Source: Euryarchaeota archaeon UBA438 | GTDB lineage: Archaea; Thermoplasmatota; Poseidoniia; Poseidoniales; Thalassarchaeaceae | Assembly: GCA_002504435.1 (NCBI GenBank) | Contig: DAQP01000043.1 | Location: 16,810 to 80,809, forward strand | DNA length: 64,000 nt | Direction of reading: 5' to 3' | In this document: one piece after another, positions 6,449-43,996 of the stretch | Numbering within the stretch: the first letter of the stretch is position 1 | Layout of the letters: every line of letters starts with the position of its first letter | The notes under the pieces: model-generated | Databases searched by the model: none | What the model was told of the DNA's origin: nothing | Seen by the model: only the letters and a program-made list of their open reading frames with translations | Program-made: the position numbers and the translations under genes

Positions 6449-9400
6449 GTGAGAATATGGGGCGAACGTTCAAGTGGGTTACGAAAACCAAATTTGACTC
6501 TGATGACAGTTGATGCCACGCAAAAACTCCTTCCCATGAAAGTTGGGGCAGCTTTTGCAGTGTCGATTATGCTAGCTATGTCACTATCACCAATGTTGGC
6601 CACTACAGGGGTTTCGAGGAGCCTAGAAGATTCCAACGAAATGAGGAGTTCCGGAATCGACCCCTGGTCGGACGGTGGCCAAGCCTGGCCACAACCAGGC
6701 AGGACCCCCGATAGGGTTTCCAATCCTCCAGGCCATGTACATTCTTCGGATTCAGGGGGCGGCCTACTTTCAATAGTCGACCCGGTGATAAACTGGGATT
6801 TTGGTTCCGACCCCATAGGTACTGATTCTCTTGGCACACCTATTGCTGATTTCTCCTCGTCCCTAACCACTGACCCTTCCTCGGAAGAGAGGTGCGGAGG
6901 AGACTCGCTTTACACCATAATTGTACAGACTGACTCTGCATCAGGTGAGAGTTACATGAGAATAATTGAGGGGGAGGACTCTGATCTCGCATGGGAAGTT
7001 AGTCTCGGAGTTACAGAGAAAGTCAAGGCCTCACCTGTAGTTGTGGATTTGGATGACGATGGGAAGCCGGAGGTGATAGCGGTGTATGACCAAGGAGGGA
7101 CTCTGAATGTCGATGCGTGGTCGCCCAGGCTATTCTGCTCGGTTACCGGATGGAACCCCGGAGCAGGTAGTTCGCAACAGCCAATCTGGACCTGGGAGGA
7201 TGACGACTTGATGGTGAGTAGTGACGTTGGGGCTTATGTCAGTGGTTGGCTGGGGGGGCACAAGCCAACTGCCCAGCCACTTCTTGCCGACTTGGACCTT
7301 GATGGAGATGCAGAGTTGGTAGTTGCTGCGGTAAACGAGAACAGTGGGGATCCGGTCATTGTTGCACTGAGTCTGCCTTCTAGCGGCTCGCCCGCCACAC
7401 TTTGGGAAAAAACACTGGACAAGGGGAGCCATCCTTCTGACCCTGCTTTTGCACAGACGGATGAGAATACTGGCTATGTTGTACTGACGACCACCGAGTA
7501 CAGCAATGGCGGAATGTGGGTTTGGAGGCTTGACTCGTTGACGGGAGATTCGGGATGGGACGGCCTTAGCCTGAATAACATAGATGGCGACTCTGATGCG
7601 CCTCACATCAGACTCCCTGGTCCAGTTGTAGCCAATCTTGATGATGATGAGACTCCCGAAATTGTAGTAACCATACCTACAGATGCCGACGGATCGGGTG
7701 CTGTTGATGGCGCTGAATTCAGAGGTCTAGAAATCAGCACCGGTGCCGAGATATGGTCATTCGAGGCAGATAATGGGTACGCTGACGCGCCACCCATTGT
7801 TATCGATACAGACGATGATGGGACCATCGAGAGGGTCTGTTGGGTCACTTGGTGGCAAACTGCAACAGCTAGGCACGGAGTCACGGGTTGTCATGATGTA
7901 GATGGATCCAGCCCCGAAGAGGCATGGCACCGGGATCTCGAGCAGAGCAGCGGGGCGCCGAACGACGAGATAGCTGTCTCACCCCCAGTTTGGATGGATA
8001 TTGATGGTAGTGGGGAGCCTGAGCTCCTAGTCGCCTATGGGAGATCACTCTGGGCGTTCGATGGAGCGGAGGGAACTGGGTCTGCCATCAACACTGAGTG
8101 GGCCAATGAGTTGGAGTTGAACCACCGAACTTGGTCTTCACCTGCGTTGGCCGACATCGATGGGGACGGCACACTGGACATCATCATCGGTAGCACCGTT
8201 GTCTCGCTTGAGAGGTCCGACGTTAGACCCCTCCTTGATGGAGGGGGGATAGAGTTGGACCCAACTGCCCCCAGTCCAGGTGAGGAGGTCACGGTTTCTG
8301 CATTTATCGAGAACTCTGGAACAGGGCCCATAGATTCGGAATTTGATGCTGTCCTCTATGCCGATGGAGTAGAAATTGGGAGGAGGACATTCACATCTCT
8401 GGAACCAGTTGAGCCAACGGGATCAGGGTCCTTTGAAACATTCAGTGTTGAATGGTCGGGGCCACTTGGGGACCATGAATTCACATTGGAGCTAGACAGT
8501 TTCGGGAACCTGACTCAGACTAGGACGGACAATGATGTTGCTAGCAAGATTGTATCCATCGTCCCGACGTACAATGCTTCTTTCGAAATTCCGACTGAGC
8601 CCGTCAGGGTATCTCCAGGCAGTAGCACAACTGCTAGCCCGACTGTGAGGTCTACTGGGAGGCTCGCTGGGACATGGTCCCTCAGCATAGATGACTCCGA
8701 ACTTCCTGAGGGTTGGACGTGGTCGGACTCCACGCAGGAAGGAATTAGCAATGTCGAGATTGGAGTGGATGATACTTGGTCCCCTGATCTAACTATAACA
8801 GCGCCTTCGGAGGCACTTGGTTCTGACTCAGGATACCTATCTCTGACCCTGACCCTCGATGAAGACTCGAACGTTTCTGTTTCTGCAAATCTTCCAATAG
8901 AGGCGAATAGAACGAGGGGGCTCTCACTTAGAGGACCCGATGGAACGTCTCAGAGCAGCGGCTACGGACTACCTGGGCAGGATGCAGAAGCATGGTTCAT
9001 GGCCGAGAATCTAGGAAATGCCGAGGAGGACCAGATTCTCCTCTCATGGGACAGCACACCATGGGGCAATGACCTGCGCCTATACGACATGGAAGGGGCC
9101 GAAAGATCAGCGTTAATTTTGGCCCCCGGAGAAGAGTTGGCGTTAGTTGCAACCCTAGCCGTTCCTTCCGACGCACCCGTGGGAGATTCAGTTGGCACGC
9201 CTCTAACCATGTGCGTTGGCACGGGCACGGAAGAAGAGACCTGCCAGACCATACAATTAACATTCCATTCTTCGAACGTTGTTTCTGGAAATCACATCAG
9301 AAGCGTTCCCGCGAATGGACTCGAATGGTCGGTAATTACTGAAATGCCGGCTGAAAGCGGGACAATCACATGGTCACTTTCTGAAATGGGGATGGCGATG

Positions 9401-12133
9401 CCAGGGTGGTCTTGGATCGGAACTGGCGACATCTCAGTTTCAGGCGATATGATAACTATGACCGGCCCCTCTGGTGGAACATCTTCAGGTTCGTTAATTG
9501 CTAACCTCCCCGAGGACGCTTCTCCAGCATTCCACTATTTCTCAGACGCGAGTCAGGAGTCTACGGAACACCACCTAATCATAACATTGGAGGTATTGCA
9601 GATTTTCAGAGCGAATTTGGCTGTAATTTCGCCCCAAGATCAGCCGCATGTGGTTGATGTTGAGGAAGGCTCCCTTGTCGTCCTCAGACTCGAGAATCCC
9701 GGTAACGGCGATGACGTATACTCACTTGGCTATTCGGTGATTATAGACTCCAATATTTCCAGCGACCCTGGAGTAGTTGTGGAATTCTCGGTAGGAGAAG
9801 TCGGACTTACTTCGGGGAGCCTGACAACTATTCCAGTAACGGTAACTCTCCCTGAAAGTACGCCAGCAGGGGTTCCTTTGTGGCTTGAGTTCACCGTAAT
9901 GTCACAAGGCGACCCGGGAGTATCGTCCTCCGACACCGTTGCCCTTGAGGCCAGACAGGACCACAGGTGGGATATCGGCGCTAGTGTCGATTCTGTGCCC
10001 ATGGCCAATGGCAGTATTTTCGTCATTAATCCAGGGGTCTCGTTCTCCTTGGAAGTTGATGCGAAAAATGTGGGTAATCTGGAAGATGGAATCAATCTTG
10101 ATGTGATGACCTCGCTTGACCTAGTGGACGGAGACTCAGCTACAGGATGGAGCGCCACTGGAGACTCGGCGGAAAATGTCGCAGTCAACCAGACTGTTTC
10201 TATGAGCATAGTTTCAGCTGTCGATGCTGAATCATGGAGCGGATCATCCATGACCGTCGTAGTCACCGCATCCTCCCAAGGAGAAGAGGTTTCTACGTTC
10301 TCATTCACTATTGAGGCAGGCCATGTCCCATCATGGAACGCAATAGCTGATCAGGCGAATCTTGAGGTTGACCCATTTGGTTCGCAGATAGAGCTCACAG
10401 TTGTGCAGTCTGGTAACTCGCCCACTAGGGCATATGCTTCCATGTTCATTACAGGGGAGTCAGGGTGGTCCGTAGATGAGCCCGACGAGCTCCCTGTCCT
10501 TTCACCCGGAGAGACCGCGCCACTAATTCTCAACATCACCCCTCCAGAGAATGCGGTCTATGGAAGGGCCGTGGAGCTTCACCTCCGCCTAAGGGAAGGC
10601 GACTCTAGTGTGGTCTCCGAGATAGTTTTCCCACTAAGGGTGGCAGTCACGCATGAGTTCTCTCTTACCGGAGAAGGGGACTGGTTAGTGAGTGATTTGG
10701 GAGGGCACCCATTGGCCATGCTCGAAAACCTTGGTAACGCACCTAGCACCATCTCATTACAAGTTCTAAGTCTTCCACTTGGTTGGTCCGTCTCAGGAAG
10801 AACCGAAGTCGTACTGGGTGTTGGCGAGATAACCGGCGTACCACTAGAGTTGGTTCCTAGTGAAGACTGGGATGGCAGTGTGAAGACCATACGAATTCTG
10901 GCGGAAGATACAGCCGGAAACCAAAGGGAAATAAATCTGGATACCGAGAAGGGAGATTTTTCATGGGCGAGTTCTCCTGTCATAGTGTCCACTAGTGGCG
11001 ATAGCGCGCTTTTGGGAATTCATGGAACTGATTCCGGATCCATTGTCACTGATTCATTTTCAGGGTCACTGATTTGGAGTACCCTTGGCGGTTGGGCATG
11101 GCCGGCGACATCCAGTGGAAGTGGCACTATCTCGGTTTCATCGGGTTCCGACCAAGGAAGTCTGGAATACAAGTCAATAGTGGTGGAGCCAGTCACCAGA
11201 GGGGCTAGTTGCTTGGTTTATGGCAGCATTGGCGAAATTACGGCAAGCTGTTCGATAGGAAATGGTACCGAGCCTTTCGATTACACGATAATTCTAGTCG
11301 ACGACATGGGGGGCATGATGGTTTCCCAATCCGGAACCGTAGGGAGGAATACGACTGCAATAGTCAACTTGACCTCGGAAGAATGGGCTCCACTTCCGGG
11401 CAACAGGGAGATTTCAATCAGATTGCTGGACTCTAGGGGGATCCTAGTTACGTCCCAGTCCCAGATTTTCGAAGTTCGGAGAACGGATTGGAACGTCGGT
11501 TTGGTTCAGCTGGAACTGGATGGACAGGGTGCTAGCCAGAAAATTGAAATTTCCACAAGGAGGGAAAATTACGAACTGCTCCCTTCAGGGACGCAATGCA
11601 GCATAAAAATCGAAGCGGGGCAATACACTTCCGTCCACATGGTGGATATGACATCTGCAAATGCCCTAGCCCCTAAGCCATCTATAGATAGGCCAGATGT
11701 TGAGGATTCAACCGAGATGGTCGCCACGATAAGCTGTGACTTCCCGTGGGACCAGGATTCTGATCCTTCGGATAACGTGGCCAGCGTGATTCTTTCGGGT
11801 GGCGAAGAATTGGATAGTGGAATTAGCGATTCGAGCACGGCAGTTGCCGCGGCTGCCATGGTCATCGGTGCTTCGATTGCACTTTCATGGATGGTCAGCA
11901 ATTACAGAGAAGGCCGAGAGATGATGGAGAAAACCAGGTTGGCGGTAGAGAAGAAGGCCCTTGAGAAAAGGGCCGCTCTCAAGGAGAAAATGGCCGATGT
12001 CGAAGAGGAGGTTTTGCCTGAATCTGCTGATGAAGATAGGGAAAAGGTGGCCTCTGAGGAGCCGCCTGCCTCGGAAATTGGTCAGGACGATTCATTCGAA
12101 AGCCGCCTAAACAGACTCATGGGTGAAAGGTAA
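6449..12133 (+). CDS. Giant surface protein (about 1890 aa). Signal peptide, FG-GAP (integrin-alpha-like) beta-propeller, CARDB and multiple Ig-like domains, C-terminal TM anchor, Lys/Glu-rich cytoplasmic tail.
   Basis: The signal peptide MKVGAAFAVSIMLAMSLSPMLA begins at the internal ATG 6536, which is the likely true start. At least five FG-GAP-like Ca-binding loops (DLDDDGKPEVIAV, DLDLDGDAELVVAA, NLDDDETPEIVV, DIDGSGEPELLVA, DIDGDGTLDIIIG) appear within long W/G-rich strands. A CARDB-like module (PSPGEEVTVSAFIENSGTGPID...) follows. The C-terminal AVAAAAMVIGASIALSWMV helix is followed by EKKALEKRAALKEKMADVEEE. Confidence 0.8.
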   Translation: MRIWGERSSGLRKPNLTLMTVDATQKLLPMKVGAAFAVSIMLAMSLSPMLATTGVSRSLEDSNEMRSSGIDPWSDGGQAWPQPGRTPDRVSNPPGHVHSSDSGGGLLSIVDPVINWDFGSDPIGTDSLGTPIADFSSSLTTDPSSEERCGGDSLYTIIVQTDSASGESYMRIIEGEDSDLAWEVSLGVTEKVKASPVVVDLDDDGKPEVIAVYDQGGTLNVDAWSPRLFCSVTGWNPGAGSSQQPIWTWEDDDLMVSSDVGAYVSGWLGGHKPTAQPLLADLDLDGDAELVVAAVNENSGDPVIVALSLPSSGSPATLWEKTLDKGSHPSDPAFAQTDENTGYVVLTTTEYSNGGMWVWRLDSLTGDSGWDGLSLNNIDGDSDAPHIRLPGPVVANLDDDETPEIVVTIPTDADGSGAVDGAEFRGLEISTGAEIWSFEADNGYADAPPIVIDTDDDGTIERVCWVTWWQTATARHGVTGCHDVDGSSPEEAWHRDLEQSSGAPNDEIAVSPPVWMDIDGSGEPELLVAYGRSLWAFDGAEGTGSAINTEWANELELNHRTWSSPALADIDGDGTLDIIIGSTVVSLERSDVRPLLDGGGIELDPTAPSPGEEVTVSAFIENSGTGPIDSEFDAVLYADGVEIGRRTFTSLEPVEPTGSGSFETFSVEWSGPLGDHEFTLELDSFGNLTQTRTDNDVASKIVSIVPTYNASFEIPTEPVRVSPGSSTTASPTVRSTGRLAGTWSLSIDDSELPEGWTWSDSTQEGISNVEIGVDDTWSPDLTITAPSEALGSDSGYLSLTLTLDEDSNVSVSANLPIEANRTRGLSLRGPDGTSQSSGYGLPGQDAEAWFMAENLGNAEEDQILLSWDSTPWGNDLRLYDMEGAERSALILAPGEELALVATLAVPSDAPVGDSVGTPLTMCVGTGTEEETCQTIQLTFHSSNVVSGNHIRSVPANGLEWSVITEMPAESGTITWSLSEMGMAMPGWSWIGTGDISVSGDMITMTGPSGGTSSGSLIANLPEDASPAFHYFSDASQESTEHHLIITLEVLQIFRANLAVISPQDQPHVVDVEEGSLVVLRLENPGNGDDVYSLGYSVIIDSNISSDPGVVVEFSVGEVGLTSGSLTTIPVTVTLPESTPAGVPLWLEFTVMSQGDPGVSSSDTVALEARQDHRWDIGASVDSVPMANGSIFVINPGVSFSLEVDAKNVGNLEDGINLDVMTSLDLVDGDSATGWSATGDSAENVAVNQTVSMSIVSAVDAESWSGSSMTVVVTASSQGEEVSTFSFTIEAGHVPSWNAIADQANLEVDPFGSQIELTVVQSGNSPTRAYASMFITGESGWSVDEPDELPVLSPGETAPLILNITPPENAVYGRAVELHLRLREGDSSVVSEIVFPLRVAVTHEFSLTGEGDWLVSDLGGHPLAMLENLGNAPSTISLQVLSLPLGWSVSGRTEVVLGVGEITGVPLELVPSEDWDGSVKTIRILAEDTAGNQREINLDTEKGDFSWASSPVIVSTSGDSALLGIHGTDSGSIVTDSFSGSLIWSTLGGWAWPATSSGSGTISVSSGSDQGSLEYKSIVVEPVTRGASCLVYGSIGEITASCSIGNGTEPFDYTIILVDDMGGMMVSQSGTVGRNTTAIVNLTSEEWAPLPGNREISIRLLDSRGILVTSQSQIFEVRRTDWNVGLVQLELDGQGASQKIEISTRRENYELLPSGTQCSIKIEAGQYTSVHMVDMTSANALAPKPSIDRPDVEDSTEMVATISCDFPWDQDSDPSDNVASVILSGGEELDSGISDSSTAVAAAAMVIGASIALSWMVSNYREGREMMEKTRLAVEKKALEKRAALKEKMADVEEEVLPESADEDREKVASEEPPASEIGQDDSFESRLNRLMGER

Positions 12134-12146
12134 TCGGGGTTTCTCA

Positions 12147-12773
12147 ATGTCTAGAGCGCCTCCGACACCTGCATTCTACACATTCGACCCCATTACTGTG
12201 GACTTGATCGATCTTGTGCCCCCAATTCAAGCATCCCTGGGTGGAGATCACCGGGAGCTGCTTTCTATGTGCCCACTGTCTGTTGACATCCAAGGCCTCC
12301 GTCAGGGCCAAGAGGCCCCGTTTGATCCCGCCACATTGCTATACCTAGCTAGCGGGGACTGGGGGCCTAAGGGGGGCATGGCTGAGCCTCTTGACTCGAT
12401 GGCGACTAGAGAGAAGCTCGGCAGATTTCCCAGTGAAGACGGCAATGTGATTTCGTACCTTATCTCGTTCACTAGGCAAAGGGGCGACATGACTGTATTG
12501 CACGAGCTACTTGCTAAGCTTTGTGACGGGCTATCTGAAGAGAATCTTGGAGAACCGGGATTCAGGGATGGTTTCGGTGGAATGTCCCTTCTTGGGTGGA
12601 TTGACCCGCGGGAAGTTAGTGAGTTGAGGTCCTCGATACGTTCTGGAAGATGGACTACGTTGGGAGATGAGCCACTTGATGGAGGGGTAGACTATGGATT
12701 TAGGCACCTTCTGTCAATACTAAGATCGGCAGAAAAAAGGGGATGTGGGATTCTAATGAGAAGGCACTCATAA
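12147..12773 (+). CDS. Hypothetical protein
   Basis: The open frame abuts and overlaps the end of the giant surface-protein gene. No recognisable motifs. The start is placed at MSRAPP; the track ORF starts at 12123. Confidence 0.35.
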   Translation: MSRAPPTPAFYTFDPITVDLIDLVPPIQASLGGDHRELLSMCPLSVDIQGLRQGQEAPFDPATLLYLASGDWGPKGGMAEPLDSMATREKLGRFPSEDGNVISYLISFTRQRGDMTVLHELLAKLCDGLSEENLGEPGFRDGFGGMSLLGWIDPREVSELRSSIRSGRWTTLGDEPLDGGVDYGFRHLLSILRSAEKRGCGILMRRHS

Positions 12774-13731: not shown

Positions 13732-14709
13732 TCAGTCCTTTCTGGCCGCTTCCCTCAATATGAATACTGAAAGAAGCAATATTGCAACTATTCTCAAATC
13801 AAAATCGGATTCATCATCCTTGGGCTGATCCGAATCAAATAATTCAGCGGCAGAGTCGATCCCGGGGGATTCAGTGGATGAAAGAATAACGGTCCCTCCG
13901 ACGTGGTAGGGGGAAGAAGAGGTGAATCCTCCGGGAACTTGGTCCGGCGTAACCGAAGCCATGGCGATATCACATAAATCGGATTCGGTCAAGTCGCTGA
14001 GGACATTCTCGAAAACGCCACTGTTGTGGCTGTAAAGAGTGAGTTCCACCTCGTAGTGGCTAGCTATACTATTGGCTATCATTTCTGCCATGTCAACCTC
14101 GAATCCGACCAATTCGCCGCTGGCGCCGAACCTAGTCATGGAGGAGTCTTGGTTCAGCATGCAGACACCGATGTCTCCATCTTCAAACAATATCCTGTGG
14201 AGCGTTCCGCCTTCCGTTGGAGTTGGCCAGGCATCCTCATACTCCTCGAAGTCATAGAAATCTAACTGGGGCCTGTCTGAGAACCAAAGTTGGTGTGTGG
14301 AAATGGCGGTTCCCCTCTGATGAATGTCCGCCAGAGCGGAATTAACTGCATATCTTAGTTCCTCATTCCCCGAATCCTGAGAATTATCTGACCTAATCAT
14401 GGCAATGAAATAATCCGAAATATCGAACATCTCGCCCACAGTAATTGTATTCCACTGAGCAATCATTTCTGAGTCTGTCAATAAATGATGAGGGCCGATT
14501 ACGAAGTCGACCTCACCGTCCCTCAGGGACCTGATAGCAAATTGCATATCCTCAAACTCCATTTCTTGCAAATTTGAATTCTGGGCAACGAAACGAGAGG
14601 AGTCTTCGCCCGAAATAGTGCCAATGGAATAGGACGCTTCGCCTGATGCGGGTAGCCATGAACAAGAAAGCAATATCAGGACAATTAGGATGGCGGCAGT
14701 CCCTCTCAT
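13732..14709 (-). CDS. Membrane-anchored solute-binding protein, probably the polar-amino-acid SBP for the adjacent ABC transporter
   Basis: N-terminal signal peptide (MRGTAAILIVLILLSCSWLPASG) and a C-terminal TM helix (RIVAILLLSVFIL) with a basic stop-transfer. The two-lobe alpha/beta composition is typical of family-3 SBPs. It is divergent from the permease/ATPase genes. The family assignment is inferred from context more than from motifs. Confidence 0.55.
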   Translation of the reverse strand: MRGTAAILIVLILLSCSWLPASGEASYSIGTISGEDSSRFVAQNSNLQEMEFEDMQFAIRSLRDGEVDFVIGPHHLLTDSEMIAQWNTITVGEMFDISDYFIAMIRSDNSQDSGNEELRYAVNSALADIHQRGTAISTHQLWFSDRPQLDFYDFEEYEDAWPTPTEGGTLHRILFEDGDIGVCMLNQDSSMTRFGASGELVGFEVDMAEMIANSIASHYEVELTLYSHNSGVFENVLSDLTESDLCDIAMASVTPDQVPGGFTSSSPYHVGGTVILSSTESPGIDSAAELFDSDQPKDDESDFDLRIVAILLLSVFILREAARKD

Positions 14710-14782
14710 GGAGTAATCAGGGGGCGATTTGACTTAGAATTGGCGGTCCGCCTAGACTATATCCAAGGAAGAATGCCAGAGA

Positions 14783-16978
14783 ATGGGGCTCACCATGTTC
14801 GAAGAGGATTCTCGGCTCTCCGATTCAACAAGAATGAGGGGCGCTGCCCACATAATTTCCATTTCAATAGTAATACTCCTATTGACTTCAGTGAATCCAA
14901 GCCAGGCCTCTGATTTCAAGAGCAGTTGGGAAGTAGTAGAAAGCGGGACTTCTGAGGATCTCCTTACTGCTACTGAAATTGAAGGCGTAATTTGGGCATT
15001 CGGAACAGGGGGTGCGATGCTACACAGTGATGACAATGGAATTACATGGGCTGCCTACGATTCTCCCACTACAAGTGGCATTCTAAACTCGGACTCGGGT
15101 TTTGGGTCCTTGCTGGTTTCGGGAGAAAATGGACTTATGATGCTCAGGAAGAGCGGCGAAGAGCTTTGGACGGACATCCCCCTTCCCGAAGGATCCATTG
15201 TGAATGGAATCTCATTGACCGGGAGTGAAACCGCCGTTGCCGTGGGAGCCCATGGAACAATATGGAATCTTGAGGGGGGGACGTGGGCGGAAACAAACCT
15301 GTCCATAGAAAGTGATCTACTGGGTGTTTCGTTCCTCGATGAGAATCTAGGAATTGTGGTTGGCTCAGATGGGACCATCCTATTTTCCGATGATGGGGGA
15401 GAAAGTTGGGAGTATCGTGAGGCACCCGAAGGAGCGGGTGATGCTGAAATCGTCTCGGTGGAGTTCTACAGCCCCACTAGGATTTACGCCATTACGAATG
15501 ATGGGAGAATTCTAATCTCAATGAGTAACGTAGTGACGGGGACTGATGTAGGGTACATTTGGACACTCGTAGAATTCGAGAGGCACTATCCCGCAGGATC
15601 GAACGAGTATGTCCTTGGTCCGGAGACACTTGACGTCATGCTGACTTCGATTGAGGTAGTAACAACGTCGAAGTTTCTGATGACGGGTGAAGGCGGCTAC
15701 ATCTCAATGAGCATCAATGGTGGGACAATTGTTTCTCAGCAGATTAACCCACTTGGAAACAATAGTGACTTCAACGACATTGTAATGCTGACTGGATTCA
15801 ATGGCGTTGCAGTTGGCGACGGGGGCAAGATACTGTGGACCGAGAATGCTGGTGCAGACGACCAATTAGGATTCGTCGTACCGGAATATGGAAACTTCGG
15901 AGTCTTTGTTGATGAGACTAAGGCAATGTTCCTATCAGGATTCATCGCGACACTGAAAATAGTCGCATTCGGAATTATCCTGGGATTCCTCCTAGGAGTC
16001 ACCCTTGCAATGTGCAAAACATCCCCGACATCACTTAGGTACGTTGTAGAACGTTACGAAGCTAAGTATGTCAGATTGGTTGGGATTCCACTTCTGGCGG
16101 GCGGACTGTACCTATTTTATTCGGCCATACCAGGGGCTAGTAATCTGGGGCTGCAGGGAATTGAGTATGTTTTCCTTCCAGTTGGCGCACCTGTTTCTTT
16201 CGCCAAGATACTTCTGGGAATTGCGCTATTGTTCCTAGGTACACTATTCCTGAGTAATGATGGAAATTTCTCGAAAGTACGGGTTGGACCATTCGCCCTA
16301 AATCCTTGGAGGGTCAGACCGTTGAACGCAATAGCAACCGTTTACACGGACTTCTTCCGTAACACTCCGTTAATTGTCCAGTTCCTATTCATCCATTTCG
16401 GCCTTAGGCTGGGAGCCCTTATCCAGGAACCCGGATTGGAAATTTTTAGCTTCGATAATCTGGAAAATAATCATAACTTCCTGACGGACATTATTGCCAC
16501 ATACGACCATTCTGAAGGCAATTATGGGACGCTGATAGGTGGAGTACTCTACGACTCAGCATTCATCAGTGCCATATGCGCACTAGGATTCAATTCTGGT
16601 GCCTACCAATGCGAAACCATCAGAGGGGCGATTCAGGCAATACCTTCGGCCCAGATGGAAGCAGGAAGGAGCATTGGCCTAACATATTTGCAAACTATGC
16701 GACGAGTCATCATGCCTCAGGCGATTCGGATCTGCATCCCTCCGATGGGAAATGAGATGGTGAATCTGGTATTGAACTCGTCCCTTGCCATGATAATTGG
16801 ATATGCAGAGCTTACTAGGCAGGGCAAGTTGATCGTTGCGAGTACGTTCCAGTATGCATATGCTTGGGGGATGGTTCTGATATCCTACTTCGTGGTCACA
16901 TGGACCCTTGCCCTAATACTAAGGTGGCTAGAGGAAAAAACTAGGATCCCGGGACTAGGGATTACAGGAGGTGAATGA
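14783..16978 (+). CDS. Fusion protein: N-terminal BNR/Ycf48-like beta-propeller ectodomain (about 370 aa) plus polar-amino-acid ABC transporter permease (HisM/GlnP family)
   Basis: N-terminal TM/signal (AHIISISIVILLLTSV). Repeated BNR-type S-x-D-x-G-x-[ST]-W motifs (SDDNGITW, SDDGGESW, DGGKILWT) and 'GT/GS...G' blade strands. The C-terminal half has permease TM helices and the EAA-loop region (IQAIPSAQMEAGRSIGLTYLQTMRRVIMPQAIRICIPPMGNEMVNLVLNSSLAMIIGYAELTRQG). Confidence 0.75.
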   Translation: MGLTMFEEDSRLSDSTRMRGAAHIISISIVILLLTSVNPSQASDFKSSWEVVESGTSEDLLTATEIEGVIWAFGTGGAMLHSDDNGITWAAYDSPTTSGILNSDSGFGSLLVSGENGLMMLRKSGEELWTDIPLPEGSIVNGISLTGSETAVAVGAHGTIWNLEGGTWAETNLSIESDLLGVSFLDENLGIVVGSDGTILFSDDGGESWEYREAPEGAGDAEIVSVEFYSPTRIYAITNDGRILISMSNVVTGTDVGYIWTLVEFERHYPAGSNEYVLGPETLDVMLTSIEVVTTSKFLMTGEGGYISMSINGGTIVSQQINPLGNNSDFNDIVMLTGFNGVAVGDGGKILWTENAGADDQLGFVVPEYGNFGVFVDETKAMFLSGFIATLKIVAFGIILGFLLGVTLAMCKTSPTSLRYVVERYEAKYVRLVGIPLLAGGLYLFYSAIPGASNLGLQGIEYVFLPVGAPVSFAKILLGIALLFLGTLFLSNDGNFSKVRVGPFALNPWRVRPLNAIATVYTDFFRNTPLIVQFLFIHFGLRLGALIQEPGLEIFSFDNLENNHNFLTDIIATYDHSEGNYGTLIGGVLYDSAFISAICALGFNSGAYQCETIRGAIQAIPSAQMEAGRSIGLTYLQTMRRVIMPQAIRICIPPMGNEMVNLVLNSSLAMIIGYAELTRQGKLIVASTFQYAYAWGMVLISYFVVTWTLALILRWLEEKTRIPGLGITGGE

Positions 16979-17746
16979 ATGCCAGAAAAGGTACTAGACG
17001 TGGAAGATCTGCATATGATTTATGCGGGTGGCGTTCATGCTGTCAAGGGCATATCATTTGAAGTAAAACAGGGAGAGTCTGTTGCCATAATTGGATCATC
17101 CGGAAGTGGTAAGTCGACTGTCCTAAGGTGCATAAATCGACTGATAGAACCTACTGACGGCAAGATTTTCTTGAAGGAGGAGCAGGTTAACACCCCTCAC
17201 ACCGATGTAAATGACTTGCGATCCAGGATAGGGATGGTTTTCCAGTCATTCGAGCTATTTGCGCACCTTAGGGTCCTTGACAATATTACATTGGGCCTGA
17301 GACATGTCAAAGGTATGGGCAAGATGGAAGCAGAGGAAGCAGCAATGTCAGTTCTGGAAAGAGTCGATATGCTCGACAGGATTGATGCATACCCGGGTAA
17401 CCTTTCCGGCGGGCAGAAGCAGCGTGTTGCTATTGCCAGGGCCCTTGCCATGAAGCCGGAGGTTCTGCTTTTCGATGAGCCGACCAGCGCCCTTGATCCA
17501 GAACTCATAGGTTCGGTTTTGGAGACCATCCGTGGACTTGCTGACGAAGGAATGACAATGGTCGTAGTGACTCACGAGATTGGCTTTGCCAGGGATGTTG
17601 CTGATCGAATTATCTACATGGACCAGGGAGTTGTGGCAGAAGAGGGGCCTTCCTCCATCATCAACAACCCTCGGACTGAGAGGCTCAAGAAGTTCCTCTC
17701 ATCCCTTCACGAAGATGAGGTCGTGGAGCAAAATGATGTCGATTAA
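16979..17746 (+). CDS. Polar amino acid ABC transporter ATP-binding protein (GlnQ/HisP-like)
   Basis: Walker A GSSGSGKST, Q-loop, ABC signature LSGGQKQRVAIARALAM, Walker B LLFDEPTSALD, H-loop VTHEIGFA. The start codon abuts the permease stop. Confidence 0.9.
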   Translation: MPEKVLDVEDLHMIYAGGVHAVKGISFEVKQGESVAIIGSSGSGKSTVLRCINRLIEPTDGKIFLKEEQVNTPHTDVNDLRSRIGMVFQSFELFAHLRVLDNITLGLRHVKGMGKMEAEEAAMSVLERVDMLDRIDAYPGNLSGGQKQRVAIARALAMKPEVLLFDEPTSALDPELIGSVLETIRGLADEGMTMVVVTHEIGFARDVADRIIYMDQGVVAEEGPSSIINNPRTERLKKFLSSLHEDEVVEQNDVD

Positions 17747-23336: not shown

Positions 23337-23816
23337 ATGACGTGGAGGAGAGTTGTAATTGCCGACTCAGACGACGGTGCTGTAACTGAAAATGAATTCC
23401 GAGGAGTCGGCATGGGCCTCGATGTTACCGCCTCGGAAGCGCATTCACAGTTTCTCTCTGACCTACCGCACATGTCTGAGGTTTCGAAGTCCCACGAGGA
23501 ATTCATGGGACAGGTTGGAGACATACCTGAGTCCACCAGGATGGTGAACAACGACGTCACAACTATTGGCGAGATGGTTGCTGATCTAGGAGGTTCAATA
23601 GAGGGCAGCTACATGGAGATTCCAATGCCTTCGGCGAATAGAAGGGGGGTCGTCCTCGAAGTCATGGAGGGCGAGTCAGGCACTATAGCTCGAATTATCG
23701 CGCCCAGTGGTTTTGGAGGAGTTTTGAGGACGTTCAGACTTCCTACTGGGTCATTCATATCGGATGCATCATGGAACGGACACACTTTGGGGTTGTCCCT
23801 TGAAGATCATTCCTGA
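23337..23816 (+). CDS. Hypothetical small protein, possibly with an Hsp20/alpha-crystallin-like beta-sandwich
   Basis: The C-terminal GVVLEVMEGESGTIARIIAPSGFGGVLRTFRLPTGSFISDASWNGHTLGLSLE resembles the ACD strands ('F.R.F.LP..') only weakly. The start is placed at MTWRR; the track ORF starts at 23265 inside the helicase. Confidence 0.35.
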   Translation: MTWRRVVIADSDDGAVTENEFRGVGMGLDVTASEAHSQFLSDLPHMSEVSKSHEEFMGQVGDIPESTRMVNNDVTTIGEMVADLGGSIEGSYMEIPMPSANRRGVVLEVMEGESGTIARIIAPSGFGGVLRTFRLPTGSFISDASWNGHTLGLSLEDHS

Positions 23817-26800
23817 GGGACTATTGAGGCCTCCCTAGATGGAACTTCCTCGAGCTGGTCTATCTCCTGGAGAACTGAGCTCAGTGCCATCTGGGCACTC
23901 TCCCTATGGGGCTCGCCGAGAACGTGGCTTGAGTATCTGGCCTCCTCGAAAATTCTGTCGAGAGACAACAATGCCTGCTCGCTTATTGGGAGTGCGTTTC
24001 TTATTGCTAGCTCGAACTCTCTGACTGTCTCGAAGTCTCTCCTCAGGAAACCTCTGCTCATCAGTATCTGGCAGAGTCCCTCATAGCAGTTGAATATAGC
24101 CTCCCTGACCTCATCCCCTGCTGCCAAGAGCTCTGCTGTGTAGCTGAACACCCCTGCTAGCTCATCGATAGCAGCCTGTTTCCTCCTCCTTAGCACAATT
24201 ACGCCAGCCGCGGCTAGTCCGATTATCACAAGGATGGCTAGTGCGGTCATTGCAGGGCCCACCAATGATGCCCCCTGCTCCGGCTGATATTCTACATCGA
24301 CAACGGCGAACTGTGAGAGTCGGGCAGCGTCAATGGGGTCGATAATATCGGAATCGGAACTGAACTCTACTGACAAGTCCCCCCAGAAGTCCCTGTCCCA
24401 TAGGGGATGGTTCTCATGGAATGACTCGAACTGATATGTGAAGATGCCATTCTGATCTGTGACCCCTACCACAGTGAAATGTGTGCTACTCTCGTTGACT
24501 AGCCTAGCGGTAATCGAAACTCCTTCTATGGCCTCGGCCCTGTCCGTGGCAGTGACATTCACCTTTCCTGACATGGAGCTTTGGCCTATTTCTAGGAACA
24601 AAGAGTCTGGGAGGAACTCAAAGTTCACTGGGACCTTGATTATCACCTCGAACTCAATCTCGCCCCCATTCAGGAACCTTGAGGAGTCGGGATCCACGAC
24701 TATCGACATGCTGGCCACACCAGGAGGCATTGTTGAAATTGCATTCGACTCAACCAGGAACTGCCCTGTTGTCTCATCCCATGTTATCTTCGTATTCGGC
24801 CTCAGAGATTCATCCCAGTATAGCGAGAGGTCCATCTCCTCCATGGTGTTGCCCTCCCCTCCGATCTCAATTATCCTGCCAAGAACCCTAATAGGTCTAT
24901 TTCCATCGCTTCTGACGACCTCGTCCTCAAGGAATAGGATCTCTATCTGAATGTCGGCTCTGGCATACACGGTTGCATTGATCGAGTTGGAAAGGTACAG
25001 CTGTTCGCCAGCGAAAACCAATGAGACGTCGTGTGAACCCCTTGAAATCAGGTAACCCAGTTCATGACTAATGCTGAATGTTCCATCTATGCTTGTAGTA
25101 ATGGTGGAAACTTCTTCGCCATCTAGAAGGAAGGAAAGCACCCTCCCCTCCAAACCCGGATTGCCGGTAGAGTCGGCATCGAATAGCCTACCACTTAGGT
25201 TCCATGCACCACCCCTAGTAACAACATTGTTCTCGACTTGCAGTGTCATTCCGGTGTGATATGCTATTGTCAGGTTTGCCTCTACGGATCCTTCGCGGTG
25301 ATATCCCTGATTCGGAGCTATTACCGTGAGTGTGTGCTGACCCACGTCTAGGAATTCGGACACTACCCAAGAATGGGACCAGGACCCGTCTTCATCCGTC
25401 GTAGTAGTGCCTATCAGAATTCCATCAATAAAGATCTGGAGCGAGTGGTTTCCAAGCCACCCATCCGGAAGGTTATCCTTGACGGAGCCCCTGAGTTGAA
25501 GTACGTCTCCAACAGCGACCGGAACTGGTTGTTCAACACTCACCTCGACTGGACCGAAAACAGTGAAAATAGTGCTAGAGTTAGAGGCGATTACGAACTC
25601 CTCTCCACCAAATTCTATCCTAACGTTCCTTGGCCCGAGAGGCATGTCTGGGGGTACAGGGAAGAATAAGCTAAACGTGCCATTGTCAGACACAGATAGG
25701 GATGTTAGGAATTGGTCGTTCATGTAGACATCTAGATCTCGTCCGGGAAGTACCCTTCCAGCGCCATCAGTCAGCATTCCTTCTATGAGTAGCAGCTCGT
25801 TCCTGTCGACTTCCCCAGGAGGTGTCGTAAGAACGACCTGGGATGTCTGGGTCGCGTTGAATTCCTGTGTTATTGAGGATGGGAGATAGTATTCCGGATT
25901 CAGGGAGTCACCCTGGCCCATCGGGTCGACCCATGTGAAACCGCCAAGGAAGTCGACGGTGAAGGTGTGGTCGCCATAGTCTGTATCAAGCGGTAAATCG
26001 TAAGTGATGCTCCAAATCCCAGTAGAGGAGTTCGAAATTGAAGTGTACAAAGGACCTACGTCGATTCCGTCTATGGAAAGATGGACGACACCTCCCTTTT
26101 CTTCGCCGTCCTCGATCAGGGGTGCACCATGCTCGTCTAGCAGGGTTCCAGTGAACGTGACTGACTCACCTGCGATTGCGGAGCCCGTAATTGAGGTCAC
26201 ATCGAGAACCGTTGGGGCGAGTATCACCACTCTTGTCCATGTCTCATCGCCCAGTAGACCGGTGGTCCCATTGAAGCCAGCAAATGTGGCGGTAATTGTC
26301 ATCGGGCCGGGAGCCCTATTGGAATCGGTCGGGATTACAGTAGTGACAATGCCGTCCTCGTTCGTAAGGCCGGACCATGCTGGTGCCCCATCTATGGAAA
26401 TATCGACCTGGGCTCCTGAGACGAACTGTCCGGAGTTGTCAATCAATGACATGTTGAGTGTGATGTTGTCCCCTCTGACAGTTCTCTCATCAGGGTCCAA
26501 ATCCGTTGGGGAAATTATGGAAAGCATTGAGAAACCTCTGCTGTCAAAGATTCCATCCTCGGAGCTGGCGCCATAGTAGTTGACGGACGGCGTGTATGAG
26601 GCGGTGATATTGTGCGTACCACGTGGGAAGGAAAGATCCAGGAAGATTCTGGCAGACCATGTGCCATTGGCATCTACGGTTCCACCAGTGACTGAGAACG
26701 AGTTAGTGTCCCCATCGATGGCGAAGTTTAGAGTTGGATTCAGGGCATTTCCTGATCTGTCAACTATTCCACTTCCATTACTCGAAGTCAAAGTTCCACT

Positions 26801-35894: not shown

Positions 35895-35980
35895 GCAGAG
35901 GTACCCGAGTTGGTCAAAGGGGCCGGACTTAAGCTCCGGTGCAAAGTGCTTCGCAGGTTCGAATCCTGCCCTCTGCACCA
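35895..35980 (+). tRNA. tRNA-Leu (anticodon UAA) with genomically encoded CCA
   Basis: Acceptor GCAGAGG/CCTCTGC. Anticodon stem CCGGA/TCCGG with loop CTTAAGC (anticodon TAA). A 13-nt variable arm (class II). T-arm GCAGG-TTCGAAT-CCTGC. Discriminator A plus CCA. Confidence 0.85.
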
Positions 35981-38309: not shown

Positions 38310-38331
38310 GCAAGGAGCGAGTGATTGAAGC

Positions 38332-41866: not shown

Positions 41867-41875
41867 GGATTCGAC

Positions 41876-43312: not shown

Positions 43313-43315
43313 GGT

Positions 43316-43996
43316 TTGGCAATGAGGGAGATTAGGGTCCTCAGAGCGGGAATGGTCGAGCATTCCCTTGTTTCAAAGGCCATGAAGGAGCTCCAGAAAG
43401 AAAGGATTGAGGATAAAATTCCGGATACACTCATCATTGTAGAGCACCCCGAGGTTGTAACCATAGGGCCAAAGGCCAGGAGGGATGGGGTCGAAGTTGA
43501 TGGCTACCCCACAACAGAGACTGATAGAGGAGGTGGGATAACCTGGCATGGACCTGGCCAGTTGGTGGTTTACCCCATCATTAAGTGGGAAGTAGGGGAG
43601 CAGAGCGTCAGGAAAATCATCGGAATACTGGAGGACTGGTCCATTGCCGCTATGGGAGAATGTGGTGTTGAGTCCTACAAAGATCCGTCAATGCAAGGGG
43701 CCTGGGTAGATGGGTACAAAGTCTGTTCAATTGGTCTGTCATTTTTGCACTGGGTTAGTCGGCATGGCATGTCGATTAATGTCGATACTCCCGGCTCCAG
43801 GGTTGAGAATCTGGAAGGTTGTGGGATGACAAGAGGGACTCATACAAGTCTGCACCAGCTTGGATACACGCATGATGAATCTGGAGAGCCCCTGGACATT
43901 CTCCGATTCGAAGAGGCGTTGCTTGAAACCTGCGAGGAAATTCTGAAAAGGACCCCAATGAGGCCTGAAAATTGGACTCCGGAAGTATTGGCATGA
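43316..43996 (+). CDS. lipB: Octanoyl/lipoyl transferase LipB
   Basis: IIVEHPEVVTIG...RGGGITWHGPGQLVVYPII...KVCSIGL is the LipB signature with the catalytic Cys/Lys context. Confidence 0.85.
   Translation: MAMREIRVLRAGMVEHSLVSKAMKELQKERIEDKIPDTLIIVEHPEVVTIGPKARRDGVEVDGYPTTETDRGGGITWHGPGQLVVYPIIKWEVGEQSVRKIIGILEDWSIAAMGECGVESYKDPSMQGAWVDGYKVCSIGLSFLHWVSRHGMSINVDTPGSRVENLEGCGMTRGTHTSLHQLGYTHDESGEPLDILRFEEALLETCEEILKRTPMRPENWTPEVLA

What the first reader, a model, noticed from the sequence alone, without database searches (positions are those of the whole stretch)
14783..16978. ABC amino-acid permease fused to a 370-aa BNR/Ycf48-like beta-propeller ectodomain
Polar-amino-acid permeases of the HisM/GlnP family normally consist only of the TM domain. 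Here the N-terminal half (roughly 14783..15900) is a predicted extracellular propeller with BNR-type SxDxGxTW motifs (SDDNGITW, SDDGGESW). It is anchored by an N-terminal TM helix and followed in-frame by a bona fide permease with an EAA loop. The cognate ATPase follows directly. A separate, C-terminally TM-anchored SBP is encoded divergently.
The extra propeller could act as a built-in receptor that captures peptide or glycoconjugate substrates. It would be a transporter-tethered alternative to the SBP, or a sensor. I am not aware of a described permease with this fusion.
Basis: seen in the sequence. Interest (0 to 1): 0.65.

Follow-up and report, generated by a model that had tools for sequence, protein, structure and literature searches.

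The report
Archaeal amino-acid importer with fused propeller
Marine Group IIb archaea, among the most abundant archaea in the surface ocean, carry an amino-acid-type ABC importer whose membrane subunit has a secreted seven-bladed Ycf48-like beta-propeller fused to its outer end; the architecture is real and conserved, is swapped like a cassette between lineages, and has not been described functionally.

Summary
Window 14783..16978 (+) is one uninterrupted 731-aa ORF with four parts:
- an N-terminal signal or anchor;
- a seven-bladed Ycf48/BNR-type propeller at aa ~45-360 (Pfam PSII_BNR above its cut-off; best solved-structure matches are Ycf48);
- a short conserved linker;
- a polar-amino-acid (HisM/GlnP/ArtQ-type) ABC permease with an EAA loop, two inserted TM helices and an acidic outer loop.

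A GlnQ-like ATPase gene abuts the stop codon.

The fusion is not an assembly artefact. It is continuous in more than 70 species-level Poseidoniales (MGIIb) genomes, including single-cell genomes and a 1.6-Mb long-read contig. The propeller is under purifying selection (dN/dS ~0.07).

New findings:
- No stand-alone orthologue of the propeller was found among 1.84 billion representatives.
- The divergent binding protein is a circularly permuted SBP_bac_3, present in only ~19 of 80 loci.
- Between near-identical loci, the propeller module, with or without the SBP gene, is exchanged with a breakpoint exactly at the domain junction.
- SBP presence tracks propeller type.

I read the propeller as an extracellular docking or capture module of a homodimeric importer. 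SBP replacement is the main rival. Only automated annotations exist. Novelty: new variant of a known kind. Interest ~0.6.

The parts
14783..16978 (+). Complete fusion gene (731 aa + stop): signal/anchor, propeller, linker, enlarged PAAT-type permease
   Evidence: One uninterrupted ORF. Both Pfam domains score above their cut-offs. There are 166 homologues with the same two domains, and the fusion is continuous in 80 genome loci.
14783..14908 (+). N-terminal signal peptide or signal anchor (aa 1-42): basic n-region, hydrophobic aa 24-37, conserved SQA|SD motif. Start codon could be M1, M5 (14795) or M18 (14834)
   Evidence: Hydropathy and charge counts. 'PSQA' is in the consensus of 30 homologues. 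The model shows a helix at aa 15-35 followed by a disordered stretch. Cleavage is an inference; no predictor was run.
14915..15862 (+). Seven-bladed Ycf48/BNR-type beta-propeller ectodomain (aa 45-360), very acidic (D+E 47, K+R 9)
   Evidence: AF2 pLDDT is ~85-92, with 7 blades of four strands. Top Foldseek PDB hits are Ycf48 (5ojr, 5oj3, 2xbg), E 4e-14 to 7e-13, TM 0.71-0.74. phmmer against Ycf48 gives E 6.7e-10. PSII_BNR scores 47.3 bits. dN/dS is 0.06-0.08.
15026..15049 (+). Asp-box 1, SDDNGITW (aa 82-89)
   Evidence: Motif scan. D84, G86 and W89 are at least 90% conserved.
15386..15409 (+). Asp-box 2, SDDGGESW (aa 202-209)
   Evidence: Motif scan. G205, G206 and W209 are at least 90% conserved.
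15710..15733 (+). Degenerate Asp-box 3, SINGGTIV (aa 310-317)
   Evidence: Motif scan. S310, G314 and V317 are conserved.
15863..15922 (+). Short conserved linker (aa 361-380, GFxVxDFxxFGxFVDxxK). It is the recombination breakpoint between the propeller module and the permease
   Evidence: Mean conservation is 0.71 against 0.58 for the propeller. Between L013 and L016, identity jumps from ~50% to 97-100% at residue ~367.
15923..16024 (+). Canonical permease TM1 (aa 381-414)
   Evidence: Aligns to ArtQ (PDB 4yms_D) residues 13-46. Hydropathy peak of 2.57.
16025..16309 (+). Lineage-specific insertion (aa 415-509): two extra TM helices joined by a conserved outer turn (LGLxGxExxFxPVGxP). Much longer in some relatives
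   Evidence: It falls in the gap between ArtQ residues 46 and 47 in the alignment. Hydropathy and the positive-inside rule fit. The alignment shows the conserved turn and variable length, with family members from 683 to more than 870 aa.
16310..16408 (+). Canonical TM2 (aa 510-542), part of the HEQRo 3-TM signature
   Evidence: Aligns to ArtQ residues 47-79. TIGR01726 hit on aa 510-541.
16409..16555 (+). Inserted acidic extracellular loop (aa 543-591; 8 acidic, 1 basic residue)
   Evidence: It falls in the gap between ArtQ residues 79 and 86. Charge count. dN/dS is 0.02-0.03.
16556..16975 (+). Core permease TM3-TM5 with the EAA coupling loop (aa 626-645, nt 16658-16717). It is the most conserved part
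   Evidence: ArtQ residues 86-215 align at E 5e-26. Most columns are invariant in 30 homologues. dN/dS is ~0.01.
16979..17746 (+). GlnQ/HisP-type ABC ATPase. Its start codon abuts the permease stop codon
   Evidence: ABC_tran scores 131 bits. The GlnQ model scores 284.5 bits, below its equivalog cut-off of 379. It lies directly downstream in every locus long enough to show it.
13732..14709 (-). Divergently encoded, membrane-anchored, circularly permuted SBP_bac_3 binding protein (325 aa: signal peptide, permuted two-lobe fold, C-terminal TM)
   Evidence: Query aa 29-144 matches canonical residues 124-232, and query aa 196-281 matches canonical residues 28-106. In-silico un-permutation gives one contiguous Pfam match. 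AF2 pLDDT is 78 with a PBP-II fold. It is present in only ~19 of 80 orthologous loci.
14710..14782 (.). 73-bp divergent intergenic region with a TATA-like TATAT at 14758-14762
   Evidence: Read directly from the sequence. Promoter function is an inference.

Best explanation
The gene encodes the membrane subunit of a polar-amino-acid-type (TC 3.A.1.3, HisM/GlnP/ArtQ-like) type I ABC importer of Marine Group IIb archaea (Thalassarchaeaceae).

Shown:
- One polypeptide holds a secretion signal, a seven-bladed Ycf48/BNR-family beta-propeller, a short conserved linker, and a five-TM permease core. The core carries an extra TM hairpin and an acidic outer loop.
- A GlnQ-like ATPase gene follows, apparently translationally coupled.
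- Only one permease gene is present.

Inferred:
- The transporter is a homodimer, (fusion)2(ATPase)2, with two propellers outside the cell, held close to the outer face of the membrane domain.
- The propeller is an extracellular docking or capture module. It positions the ligand-loaded binding protein over the translocation pathway, much as the MalF P2 loop does for MalE. It is covalently attached to the membrane domain at the same N-terminal position as the fused binding domains of GlnPQ.
- Where present, the binding protein is the dedicated, membrane-anchored, permuted SBP. Elsewhere it would be a trans-encoded SBP such as the highly expressed AapJ-like protein.
- The propeller surface is lineage-specific, and the module is exchanged between lineages together with the SBP gene. 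This would retune partner or substrate choice while the translocator core stays constant.
- The substrate is probably one or more polar amino acids. It cannot be assigned more precisely.
For: - Architecture and topology.
- Extracellular location: it follows from the signal sequence, the positive-inside rule, and the known N-out topology of five-TM ArtQ/HisM-type permeases (alignment to 4yms).
- The fusion is real and ancient within MGIIb: 166 homologues at 34-99% identity, and 153 species genomes.
- The domain is functional: dN/dS 0.06-0.08.
- No free-standing orthologue exists. Every full-length single-stretch match among 1.84 billion representatives is a fusion or a fragment of one.
- The linker is short and more conserved than the propeller.
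- The propeller co-occurs with lineage-specific extracellular insertions in the membrane domain.
- Partner link: SBP presence sorts perfectly with propeller cluster but not with permease cluster.
- In L013 versus L016 the flanks, permease and ATPase are 92-97% identical. The propeller is 52% identical and the SBP is present versus absent. The breakpoint is at residue ~367.
- The variable surface with a conserved scaffold fits a lineage-specific protein partner.
- Precedents: Ycf48 docks flat on the outer surface of a membrane protein (PMC10403576). A Ycf48-like protein is cofit with an RND transporter (10.1101/072470). The AztD propeller hands zinc to an ABC-importer SBP (PMC6689063).
Against: - About 55 of 80 orthologous loci have no adjacent SBP gene. 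In one such genome the only SBP_bac_3 gene in the stored, truncated annotation table belongs to a separate, complete AapJQMP-like operon. A docking role there needs a borrowed SBP, which is unproven.
- The SBP-propeller association rests on one informative recombinant. The two are also physically adjacent on the DNA, so linkage alone could explain it.
- L004 versus L047 shows nearly the same SBP (84%) paired with very different propellers (41%). This argues against tight SBP-propeller co-adaptation.
- No contact information is available. The full-length model has pTM 0.48 and a poorly modelled membrane domain.
- No ligand or partner was tested.
Confidence: 0.4

Rival explanations
1. The propeller is itself the primary substrate receptor and replaces the binding protein. 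It would be a tethered, non-Venus-flytrap receptor that binds the solute (an amino acid, peptide or other small DOM compound), delivers it to the translocator and triggers the ATPase.
For: - Most orthologous loci (~55 of 80) have purC directly next to the fusion gene and no SBP.
- In an MGIIb-O1 MAG the only SBP_bac_3 gene in the stored annotation sits in a different, complete PAAT operon.
- The propeller occupies the same position (N-terminal, extracytoplasmic, before TM1) as the fused binding domains of GlnPQ (PMC8025302).
- With one permease gene, a homodimer would give two receptors per transporter.
Against: - No residues suggesting a conserved pocket were found. Family-wide conservation is mostly Gly, Trp and Asp-box scaffold, and neither face stands out.
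- Lineages that keep a dedicated SBP keep the propeller under the same constraint.
- To my knowledge, known type I importers are activated by the closed form of a two-lobed binding protein, and no propeller does this.
- The census of SBP genes in SBP-less genomes is incomplete, because the table was truncated.
Confidence: 0.2
2. The propeller is an intramolecular cap or stabiliser, acting much as Ycf48 does. It would pack on the outer loops of the enlarged membrane domain (the inserted hairpin turn and acidic loop). It would help the domain fold, protect it in a cell with no outer membrane, or gate access, and it would bind no external partner.
For: - Ycf48 binds the extracytoplasmic surface of an integral membrane protein through its membrane-facing side (PMC10403576).
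- The linker is very short and conserved.
- The propeller always co-occurs with extra extracellular elements in the membrane domain.
- No conserved external pocket was found.
Against: - In L013 versus L016 a 50%-divergent propeller is combined with a nearly identical membrane domain. The outer insertions are 77-95% identical. This is hard to reconcile with a tight co-evolved interface.
- The Ycf48 Arg patch is absent.
- The domain evolves about 8 times faster than the core.
Confidence: 0.17
3. The propeller is a surface-exposed binding module for macromolecules (proteins, peptides, glycans or particles). It would couple the importer to extracellular proteolysis or adhesion, or it would simply be exposed to phage pressure, which would drive its diversification.
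For: - MGII are inferred degraders of extracellular protein with secreted peptidases (PMC6336850).
- The nearest non-fused relatives are giant multi-propeller 'YCF48-related' proteins.
- The module shows cassette-like replacement and high divergence in otherwise 95-97% identical backbones. This pattern is typical of exposed, niche-specific or phage-targeted surface parts.
Against: - dN/dS is low (0.06-0.08), so there is no sign of diversifying selection in the pairs tested.
- There is no carbohydrate-binding or catalytic signature, and only weak Asp-box-driven matches to glycosidase models.
- The idea is purely circumstantial.
Confidence: 0.12
4. The fusion is an artefact: two adjacent genes joined by an assembly or sequencing error.
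For: One related MAG (L081) has the gene split into two calls.
Against: - That split is a single frameshift in mid-propeller, not at the domain junction.
- The ORF is continuous in more than 70 independent species-level genomes, including single-cell genomes and a long-read 1.6-Mb contig. It is also continuous on hundreds of metagenome contigs.
- No stand-alone propeller or stand-alone permease orthologue was found.
Confidence: 0.01

Closest known systems
GlnPQ of Lactococcus lactis (and OpuA): ABC importers with substrate-binding domains fused to the membrane domain
   Same: - Same transporter family (polar amino acid type I importer).
- A single permease gene, hence a homodimer.
- An extracytoplasmic domain covalently fused to the N-terminus before TM1, behind a signal sequence.
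- A GlnQ-type ATPase.
   Different: [quoted passage not shown]
- A separate SBP gene exists in some lineages.
- The membrane domain carries an extra TM hairpin and an outer loop.
Art(QN)2 of Thermoanaerobacter tengcongensis (PDB 4yms), the closest solved permease
   Same: The five-TM core aligns over TM1, TM2 and TM3-TM5 including the EAA loop (E 5e-30). It is a homodimeric translocator.
   Different: ArtQ is 220 aa with minimal outer loops and no ectodomain. The archaeal protein adds ~380 N-terminal residues plus insertions of ~95 and ~50 aa.
Ycf48/HCF136, photosystem II assembly factor
   Same: - Seven-bladed propeller.
- Best structural match (TM 0.71-0.74) and detectable sequence homology.
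- An extracytoplasmic protein that works on the outer surface of an integral membrane protein.
   Different: - No Arg patch and no lipobox.
- Far below the equivalog score.
- The host is a non-photosynthetic archaeon.
- It is covalently fused to a transporter. It is a family relative, not an orthologue.
MalF P2 loop of the maltose importer MalFGK2
   Same: An extra extracytoplasmic domain that is part of a type I importer permease. It contacts and positions the binding protein (from my own knowledge of the MalFGK2-MalE structures; not tested here).
   Different: P2 is an internal loop of ~180 aa with a different fold. It belongs to a different ABC family (CUT1).
Free beta-propeller accessories of membrane transport or signalling systems: AztD (zinc chaperone for the SBP AztC), COG4447 Ycf48-like protein with an RND exporter, LpqB with MtrB
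   Same: An extracytoplasmic propeller that works with a membrane transporter or sensor. AztD in particular feeds an ABC-importer binding protein (PMC6689063; 10.1101/072470; PMC13068155).
   Different: These are separate polypeptides. AztD has a different propeller family and a metal site. None is fused to an ABC permease.

Membership tests
PAAT-family (TC 3.A.1.3, HisM/GlnP/ArtQ) type I ABC importer permease | BPD_transp_1 domain above the Pfam gathering score | tested here: met
   67.5 bits against a cut-off of 26.4, aa 510-716.
PAAT-family (TC 3.A.1.3, HisM/GlnP/ArtQ) type I ABC importer permease | His/Glu/Gln/Arg/opine N-terminal 3-TM signature (TIGR01726) | tested here: met
   63.5 bits against a cut-off of 42.2. 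The match is in two stretches because of the 95-aa insertion.
PAAT-family (TC 3.A.1.3, HisM/GlnP/ArtQ) type I ABC importer permease | EAA coupling loop between TM3 and TM4 | tested here: met
   MEAGRSIGLTYLQTMRRVIMPQA at aa 625-647. It is nearly invariant in 30 homologues and aligns to the ArtQ loop.
PAAT-family (TC 3.A.1.3, HisM/GlnP/ArtQ) type I ABC importer permease | Adjacent HisP/GlnQ-type ATPase | tested here: met
   16979..17746. ABC_tran scores 131 bits and the GlnQ model 284.5 bits. The arrangement is conserved in all sufficiently long loci.
PAAT-family (TC 3.A.1.3, HisM/GlnP/ArtQ) type I ABC importer permease | Orthology to a permease of known substrate (equivalog-level score) | tested here: not met
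   Best scores are GlnP 121.9 against 303, TcyL 118.2 against 300, and EhuC 116.8 against 197. The substrate cannot be assigned.
PAAT-family (TC 3.A.1.3, HisM/GlnP/ArtQ) type I ABC importer permease | Cognate family-3 solute-binding protein | tested here: inconclusive
   Present next door in this window but circularly permuted. Absent from ~55 of 80 orthologous loci.
Ycf48/HCF136 photosystem II assembly factor | Seven-bladed beta-propeller with PSII_BNR signature | tested here: met
   The model has 7 blades at pLDDT ~85-92. Ycf48 structures are the top hits. PSII_BNR scores 47.3 against 27, but covers only profile positions 8-106 of 303.
Ycf48/HCF136 photosystem II assembly factor | Equivalog-level similarity (NF010237) | tested here: not met
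   48 bits against a cut-off of 326.
Ycf48/HCF136 photosystem II assembly factor | Conserved six-arginine 'Arg patch' that binds D1 (PMC10403576) | tested here: not met
   The domain has only 5 Arg, of which R212 and R233 are conserved, and a net charge of about -38. Arg positions of T. elongatus Ycf48 align to non-basic residues. The blade register of that alignment is ambiguous.
Ycf48/HCF136 photosystem II assembly factor | Lipoprotein or thylakoid-lumen targeting in an oxygenic phototroph | tested here: not met
   The signal region has no Cys. All relatives come from Poseidoniales archaea.
ABC importers with fused substrate-binding domains (GlnPQ/OpuA type) | Extracytoplasmic domain covalently joined to the membrane domain | tested here: met
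   A single ORF with the topology shown.
ABC importers with fused substrate-binding domains (GlnPQ/OpuA type) | The fused domain has the periplasmic-binding-protein (two-lobe) fold | tested here: not met
   The fused domain is a beta-propeller.
BNR/Asp-box sialidase (GH33) or related glycosidase | Asp-box repeats | tested here: met
   Three Asp-box-like motifs.
BNR/Asp-box sialidase (GH33) or related glycosidase | Catalytic arginine triad or family-level model score | tested here: not met
   Only two conserved Arg. The F510_1955 glycosylhydrolase model scores 28.8 against 175. The Pfam BNR score of 20.8 is below its cut-off of 27.

The most novel reading that the evidence does not exclude
The propeller is the substrate receptor of a binding-protein-independent type I ABC importer. 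This would be a new class of tethered, non-Venus-flytrap receptor in the most abundant surface-ocean archaea. Specificity would be re-tuned by swapping propeller cassettes at a conserved linker.
Probability: 0.2. Interest if true: 0.85.

Novelty: new variant of a known kind. Interest (0 to 1): 0.6.

Why it matters
To my knowledge, type I ABC importers are always fed by two-lobed binding proteins, free or fused. A beta-propeller built into the permease is a domain combination I could not find described in the literature searched.

It is not a curiosity of one genome. It is found in at least 153 species-level genomes, and every one of the 80 loci examined comes from Poseidoniales (MGIIb/Thalassarchaeaceae where named). 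These uncultured archaea are abundant in surface seawater, and amino-acid and peptide uptake is thought to define their niche (PMC6336850, PMC9723583).

If the propeller docks or replaces the binding protein, that would change how these transporters are annotated and modelled. It would also offer a natural example of modular, cassette-like re-tuning of a transporter's outer face.

The sharp recombination breakpoint at the linker gives ready-made chimeras for experiments, and so does the permuted SBP.

Tried and rejected
- Assembly or frameshift artefact: rejected.
- True Ycf48 orthologue or PSII function: rejected. It fails the equivalog score, has no Arg patch or lipobox, and the host is an archaeon.
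- Sialidase or glycosidase: rejected. Matches are weak and Asp-box-driven, and there is no Arg triad.
- Stand-alone propeller orthologue: two short hits (P0192, 419 aa; P0254, 357 aa) turned out to be truncated fusion proteins.
- A conserved ligand-binding face: loop-class conservation showed no enriched face.
- Domain orientation from the full-length AF2 model: not usable. pTM is 0.48, the membrane domain has pLDDT 36-70, and no PAE is returned.
- Foldseek against AFDB50, to look for the same fusion in other taxa: the library was not available.
It was redone with database homologues.
- Census of SBP genes in an SBP-less MGIIb genome: only a truncated supplementary table could be read, so it is not conclusive.
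- Literature searches for this fusion, and for a natural circularly permuted binding protein, found nothing relevant.
- The rest of the window was annotated to look for other transporter parts. None was found.
Full report
**1. The observation**

Window 14783..16978 (+) is a single 731-aa ORF with no internal stop.
- Pfam finds PSII_BNR (Ycf48 family) at 47.3 bits against a cut-off of 27, and BPD_transp_1 at 67.5 bits against 26.4.
- NCBIfam places the C-terminal third with GlnP, TcyL, EhuC and HisM permeases. It also finds the His/Glu/Gln/Arg/opine 3-TM signature above its cut-off.
A third, degenerate one is at aa 310-317.
- A GlnQ/HisP-type ATPase gene (16979..17746) begins on the base after the stop codon.
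- A family-3 binding protein with a signal peptide and a C-terminal TM anchor is encoded divergently at 13732..14709.

**2. The fusion is real**

A search of 5.8 billion proteins returned 166 homologues at 34-99% identity. The complete ones listed carry both Pfam domains. They are named Thalassarchaeaceae, Thalassarchaeum or 'Euryarchaeota archaeon'. Single 90% clusters hold up to 308 members, seen on dozens of independent contigs up to 180 kb.

A scan of one genome per species found relatives in 153 genomes. All 80 best loci are Poseidoniales. They include single-cell genomes (AG-422-I18, AG-343-E09, AG-457-A01) and a long-read MAG with a 1.6-Mb contig. tblastn matches run through the junction without a break in all of them.

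The one short homologue I examined (P0051, L081) has a single frameshift at aa ~189/190, inside the propeller and not at the domain boundary.

The window comes from an MGIIb archaeon. L001 is 98-100% identical across the neighbourhood.

**3. Anatomy**

An AlphaFold2 model built on 30 homologues gives a confident propeller (aa ~45-360, pLDDT ~85-92) with seven four-stranded blades. The N-terminal strand closes the last blade. The membrane domain is poorly modelled (pTM 0.48), so I do not use the domain orientation.
- Foldseek against the PDB ranks Ycf48 structures first: 5ojr, 5oj3 and 2xbg, E 4e-14 to 7e-13, TM 0.71-0.74. Generic WD40 propellers follow about five orders of magnitude behind.
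- phmmer also detects Ycf48 by sequence (E 6.7e-10).
- The closest solved permease is ArtQ of Art(QN)2 (4yms, E 5e-30).

That ArtQ alignment shows two lineage-specific insertions:
- aa 415-509 lies between TM1 and TM2. It holds two extra hydrophobic helices joined by a conserved outer turn.
- aa 543-591 lies between TM2 and TM3. It is an acidic outer loop.

Hydropathy and the positive-inside rule fit one topology:
- the N-terminus is inside, as a signal;
- the propeller is outside;
- seven further TM helices follow;
- the EAA loop and the C-terminus are inside.

The hydrophobic N-segment ends in SQA|SD, and 'PSQA' is in the family consensus. A cleaved signal peptide is therefore at least as likely as a permanent anchor. 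This is an inference.

With one permease gene, the transporter is presumably a homodimer with two propellers.

**4. The propeller as a working part**

Against close orthologues, dN/dS is 0.06-0.08 for the propeller and ~0.01 for the core permease. The propeller is constrained but evolves about eight times faster.

A HMMER search of 1.84 billion representatives with the propeller alone found 20,080 relatives. Every full-length, single-stretch match is another fusion permease or a truncated fragment of one. The next relatives are giant multi-propeller 'YCF48-related' bacterial proteins. So no free-standing orthologue was found.

Across 47 non-redundant orthologues the conserved positions are mostly Gly, Trp and Asp-box scaffold, and neither propeller face is clearly more conserved. 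The 20-residue linker (0.71) is more conserved than the propeller (0.58).

The domain is very acidic (47 D+E, 9 K+R). It has five Arg, of which two are conserved. It therefore lacks both the six-Arg patch by which Ycf48 binds D1 (PMC10403576) and a sialidase-type triad.

**5. The binding protein**

The divergent SBP is circularly permuted.
- Its residues 29-144 align to canonical residues 124-232 of GlnH-type proteins. Its residues 196-281 align to canonical residues 28-106.
- Re-joining the halves in silico turns a two-piece Pfam match into one contiguous match over the whole profile.
- The AF2 model (pLDDT 78, pTM 0.71) matches type II binding-protein folds only partially, as expected for a permuted chain under a sequential aligner.
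- The family is small and isolated: 28 clusters, all 267-328 aa apart from one 222-aa partial sequence.
- It is present in only ~19 of 80 orthologous loci. In the others purC lies 110-250 nt from the fusion gene.

In a published MGIIb-O1 MAG the orthologue is gene 154, labelled 'Ycf48-like protein hcf136_1' by Prokka.
- It sits between purC and the ATPase, with no SBP.
- It is weakly transcribed.
- The same contig carries a separate AapJ-type operon with a very highly transcribed SBP and two unusually large permeases (PMC9723583).

**6. Modular evolution**

Pairwise identities of propeller and core permease correlate (r = 0.86), but there are sharp outliers.
- **L013 versus L016.** purC, permease, ATPase, gdhA and the HD protein are 92-97% identical, yet the propeller is 52% identical. 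L013 has the SBP and L016 does not.
- **The breakpoint in that pair.** A sliding window shows identity rising from ~50% to 97-100% at residue ~367, which is the linker.
- **L004 versus L047.** Flanks are 95-97% identical and the SBP 84%, but the whole fusion protein is only 41-48% identical.
- **Clustering.** SBP presence sorts perfectly with propeller cluster, while one core-permease cluster is mixed.

The outer module (SBP gene plus propeller-coding half) and the translocator therefore have partly separate histories. The domain boundary acts as a natural splice point.

**7. Mechanism**

Shown:
- an extracellular Ycf48-family propeller, covalently held by a short conserved linker on a remodelled PAAT-type importer with its own ATPase.

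Inferred (confidence ~0.4):
- The propeller is a docking or capture module for the ligand-loaded binding protein. It would be functionally like the MalF P2 loop, and attached to the membrane domain at the same N-terminal position as the GlnPQ fused domains.
- Its lineage-specific surfaces are exchanged together with the SBP gene.

Rivals:
- The propeller replaces the SBP as receptor (0.2). This is favoured by the many SBP-less loci. It is disfavoured by the lack of a conserved pocket and by the propeller being retained where the SBP exists.
- An intramolecular Ycf48-like cap or stabiliser (0.17). This is disfavoured because a 50%-divergent propeller works with the same membrane domain.
- A macromolecule-binding or phage-exposed surface module (0.12).
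- Artefact (0.01).

The substrate cannot be named. All equivalog scores are far below their cut-offs. The conserved, convergently oriented glutamate dehydrogenase gene next door is only a weak hint towards Glu or Gln.

**8. Novelty**

Full-text searches found no description of a propeller-permease fusion or of this transporter. MGII genomics papers mention only 'an amino acid transporter' or the SBPs (PMC6461757, PMC6336850, PMC9723583).

Databases carry automated dual labels. The sequence is therefore known but the architecture is unexamined.

I class it as a new variant of a known kind: an ABC importer with a fused extracytoplasmic domain. Interest is ~0.6. It would be higher if the SBP-independent reading proves true.

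Noticed in passing
window 13732-14709 (-): The family-3 solute-binding protein is circularly permuted. The canonical C-terminal half comes first, the N-terminal half second, and a TM anchor follows. The order is conserved in a small, isolated MGIIb family (28 clusters). I found no described natural precedent in the literature searched.
   Followed up: yes
L013:6001-8118 versus L016:6001-8115 (also L012 versus L015, L017, L018): The propeller-coding half of the gene, together with presence or absence of the upstream SBP gene, has been exchanged between otherwise 92-97% identical loci. The breakpoint is at the propeller/permease linker (window residue ~367).
   Followed up: yes
L004:6001-8190 versus L047:6001-8310 and L052: The backbone genes are near-identical (purC 96-97%, gdhA 96%, HD 95%, SBP 84-86%). 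The fusion gene is only 41-48% identical and the ATPase 84%. The whole transporter has been replaced by a divergent allele at the same locus.
   Followed up: partly
Supplement of PMC9723583, MAG SIMO Bin 19-2, genes 91-94: MGIIb carries a second PAAT system. It has an AapJ-like SBP that is among the most transcribed genes, plus two unusually large GlnP-like permeases (~800 and ~577 aa) that may also carry extra domains or TM insertions. The propeller-fusion orthologue (gene 154) is transcribed far more weakly.
   Followed up: partly
L081:3423-5545: In one MAG (BPDT01000019) the orthologue is split by a single frameshift in mid-propeller (aa ~189/190). This is either a sequencing indel or a pseudogene. 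The purC and SBP gene calls there also look disturbed.
   Followed up: partly
P0184 (872 aa), P0120 (865 aa), P0093 (818 aa); alignment A1 columns ~487-750: The insertion between TM1 and TM2 varies greatly in length across the family, from ~95 aa to more than 300 aa. The longest members have several additional predicted TM segments.
   Followed up: no
window 6449-12133 (+), 23807-32770 (-), 32844-35777 (-): Three giant, very acidic predicted surface proteins. The first is 1894 aa with FG-GAP, CARDB and NPCBM_assoc domains. The second is 2987 aa with a transglutaminase core, Big_3_5, TSP3 repeats and DUF4129. The third is 977 aa. The 1894-aa protein has a C-terminal TM-like segment.
   Followed up: partly
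window 45829-47631 (+): A 600-aa protein combines an N-terminal SAP domain (normally DNA- or chromatin-binding) with a Peptidase_M28 domain. This is an unusual pairing.
   Followed up: no
window 12123-12773 (+): A 216-aa ORF with no Pfam match overlaps the end of the giant surface-protein gene and abuts purC. It is conserved (45-89% identity) near purC in many MGIIb loci.
   Followed up: partly
window 14750-14800: A TATA-like TATAT at 14758-14762 lies ~23 nt before ATG 14783. The transcript may be leaderless or start just downstream, so translation may begin at M5 (14795) or M18 (14834). N-termini of homologues vary accordingly.
   Followed up: no
window 37251-43996 (+): A tidy cluster for a 2-oxoacid dehydrogenase complex: lipoyl synthase, E1 alpha, E1 beta, E2, E3 and a lipoate-protein ligase. 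The tRNA at 35895-35977 is the only Rfam hit in the window.
   Followed up: partly
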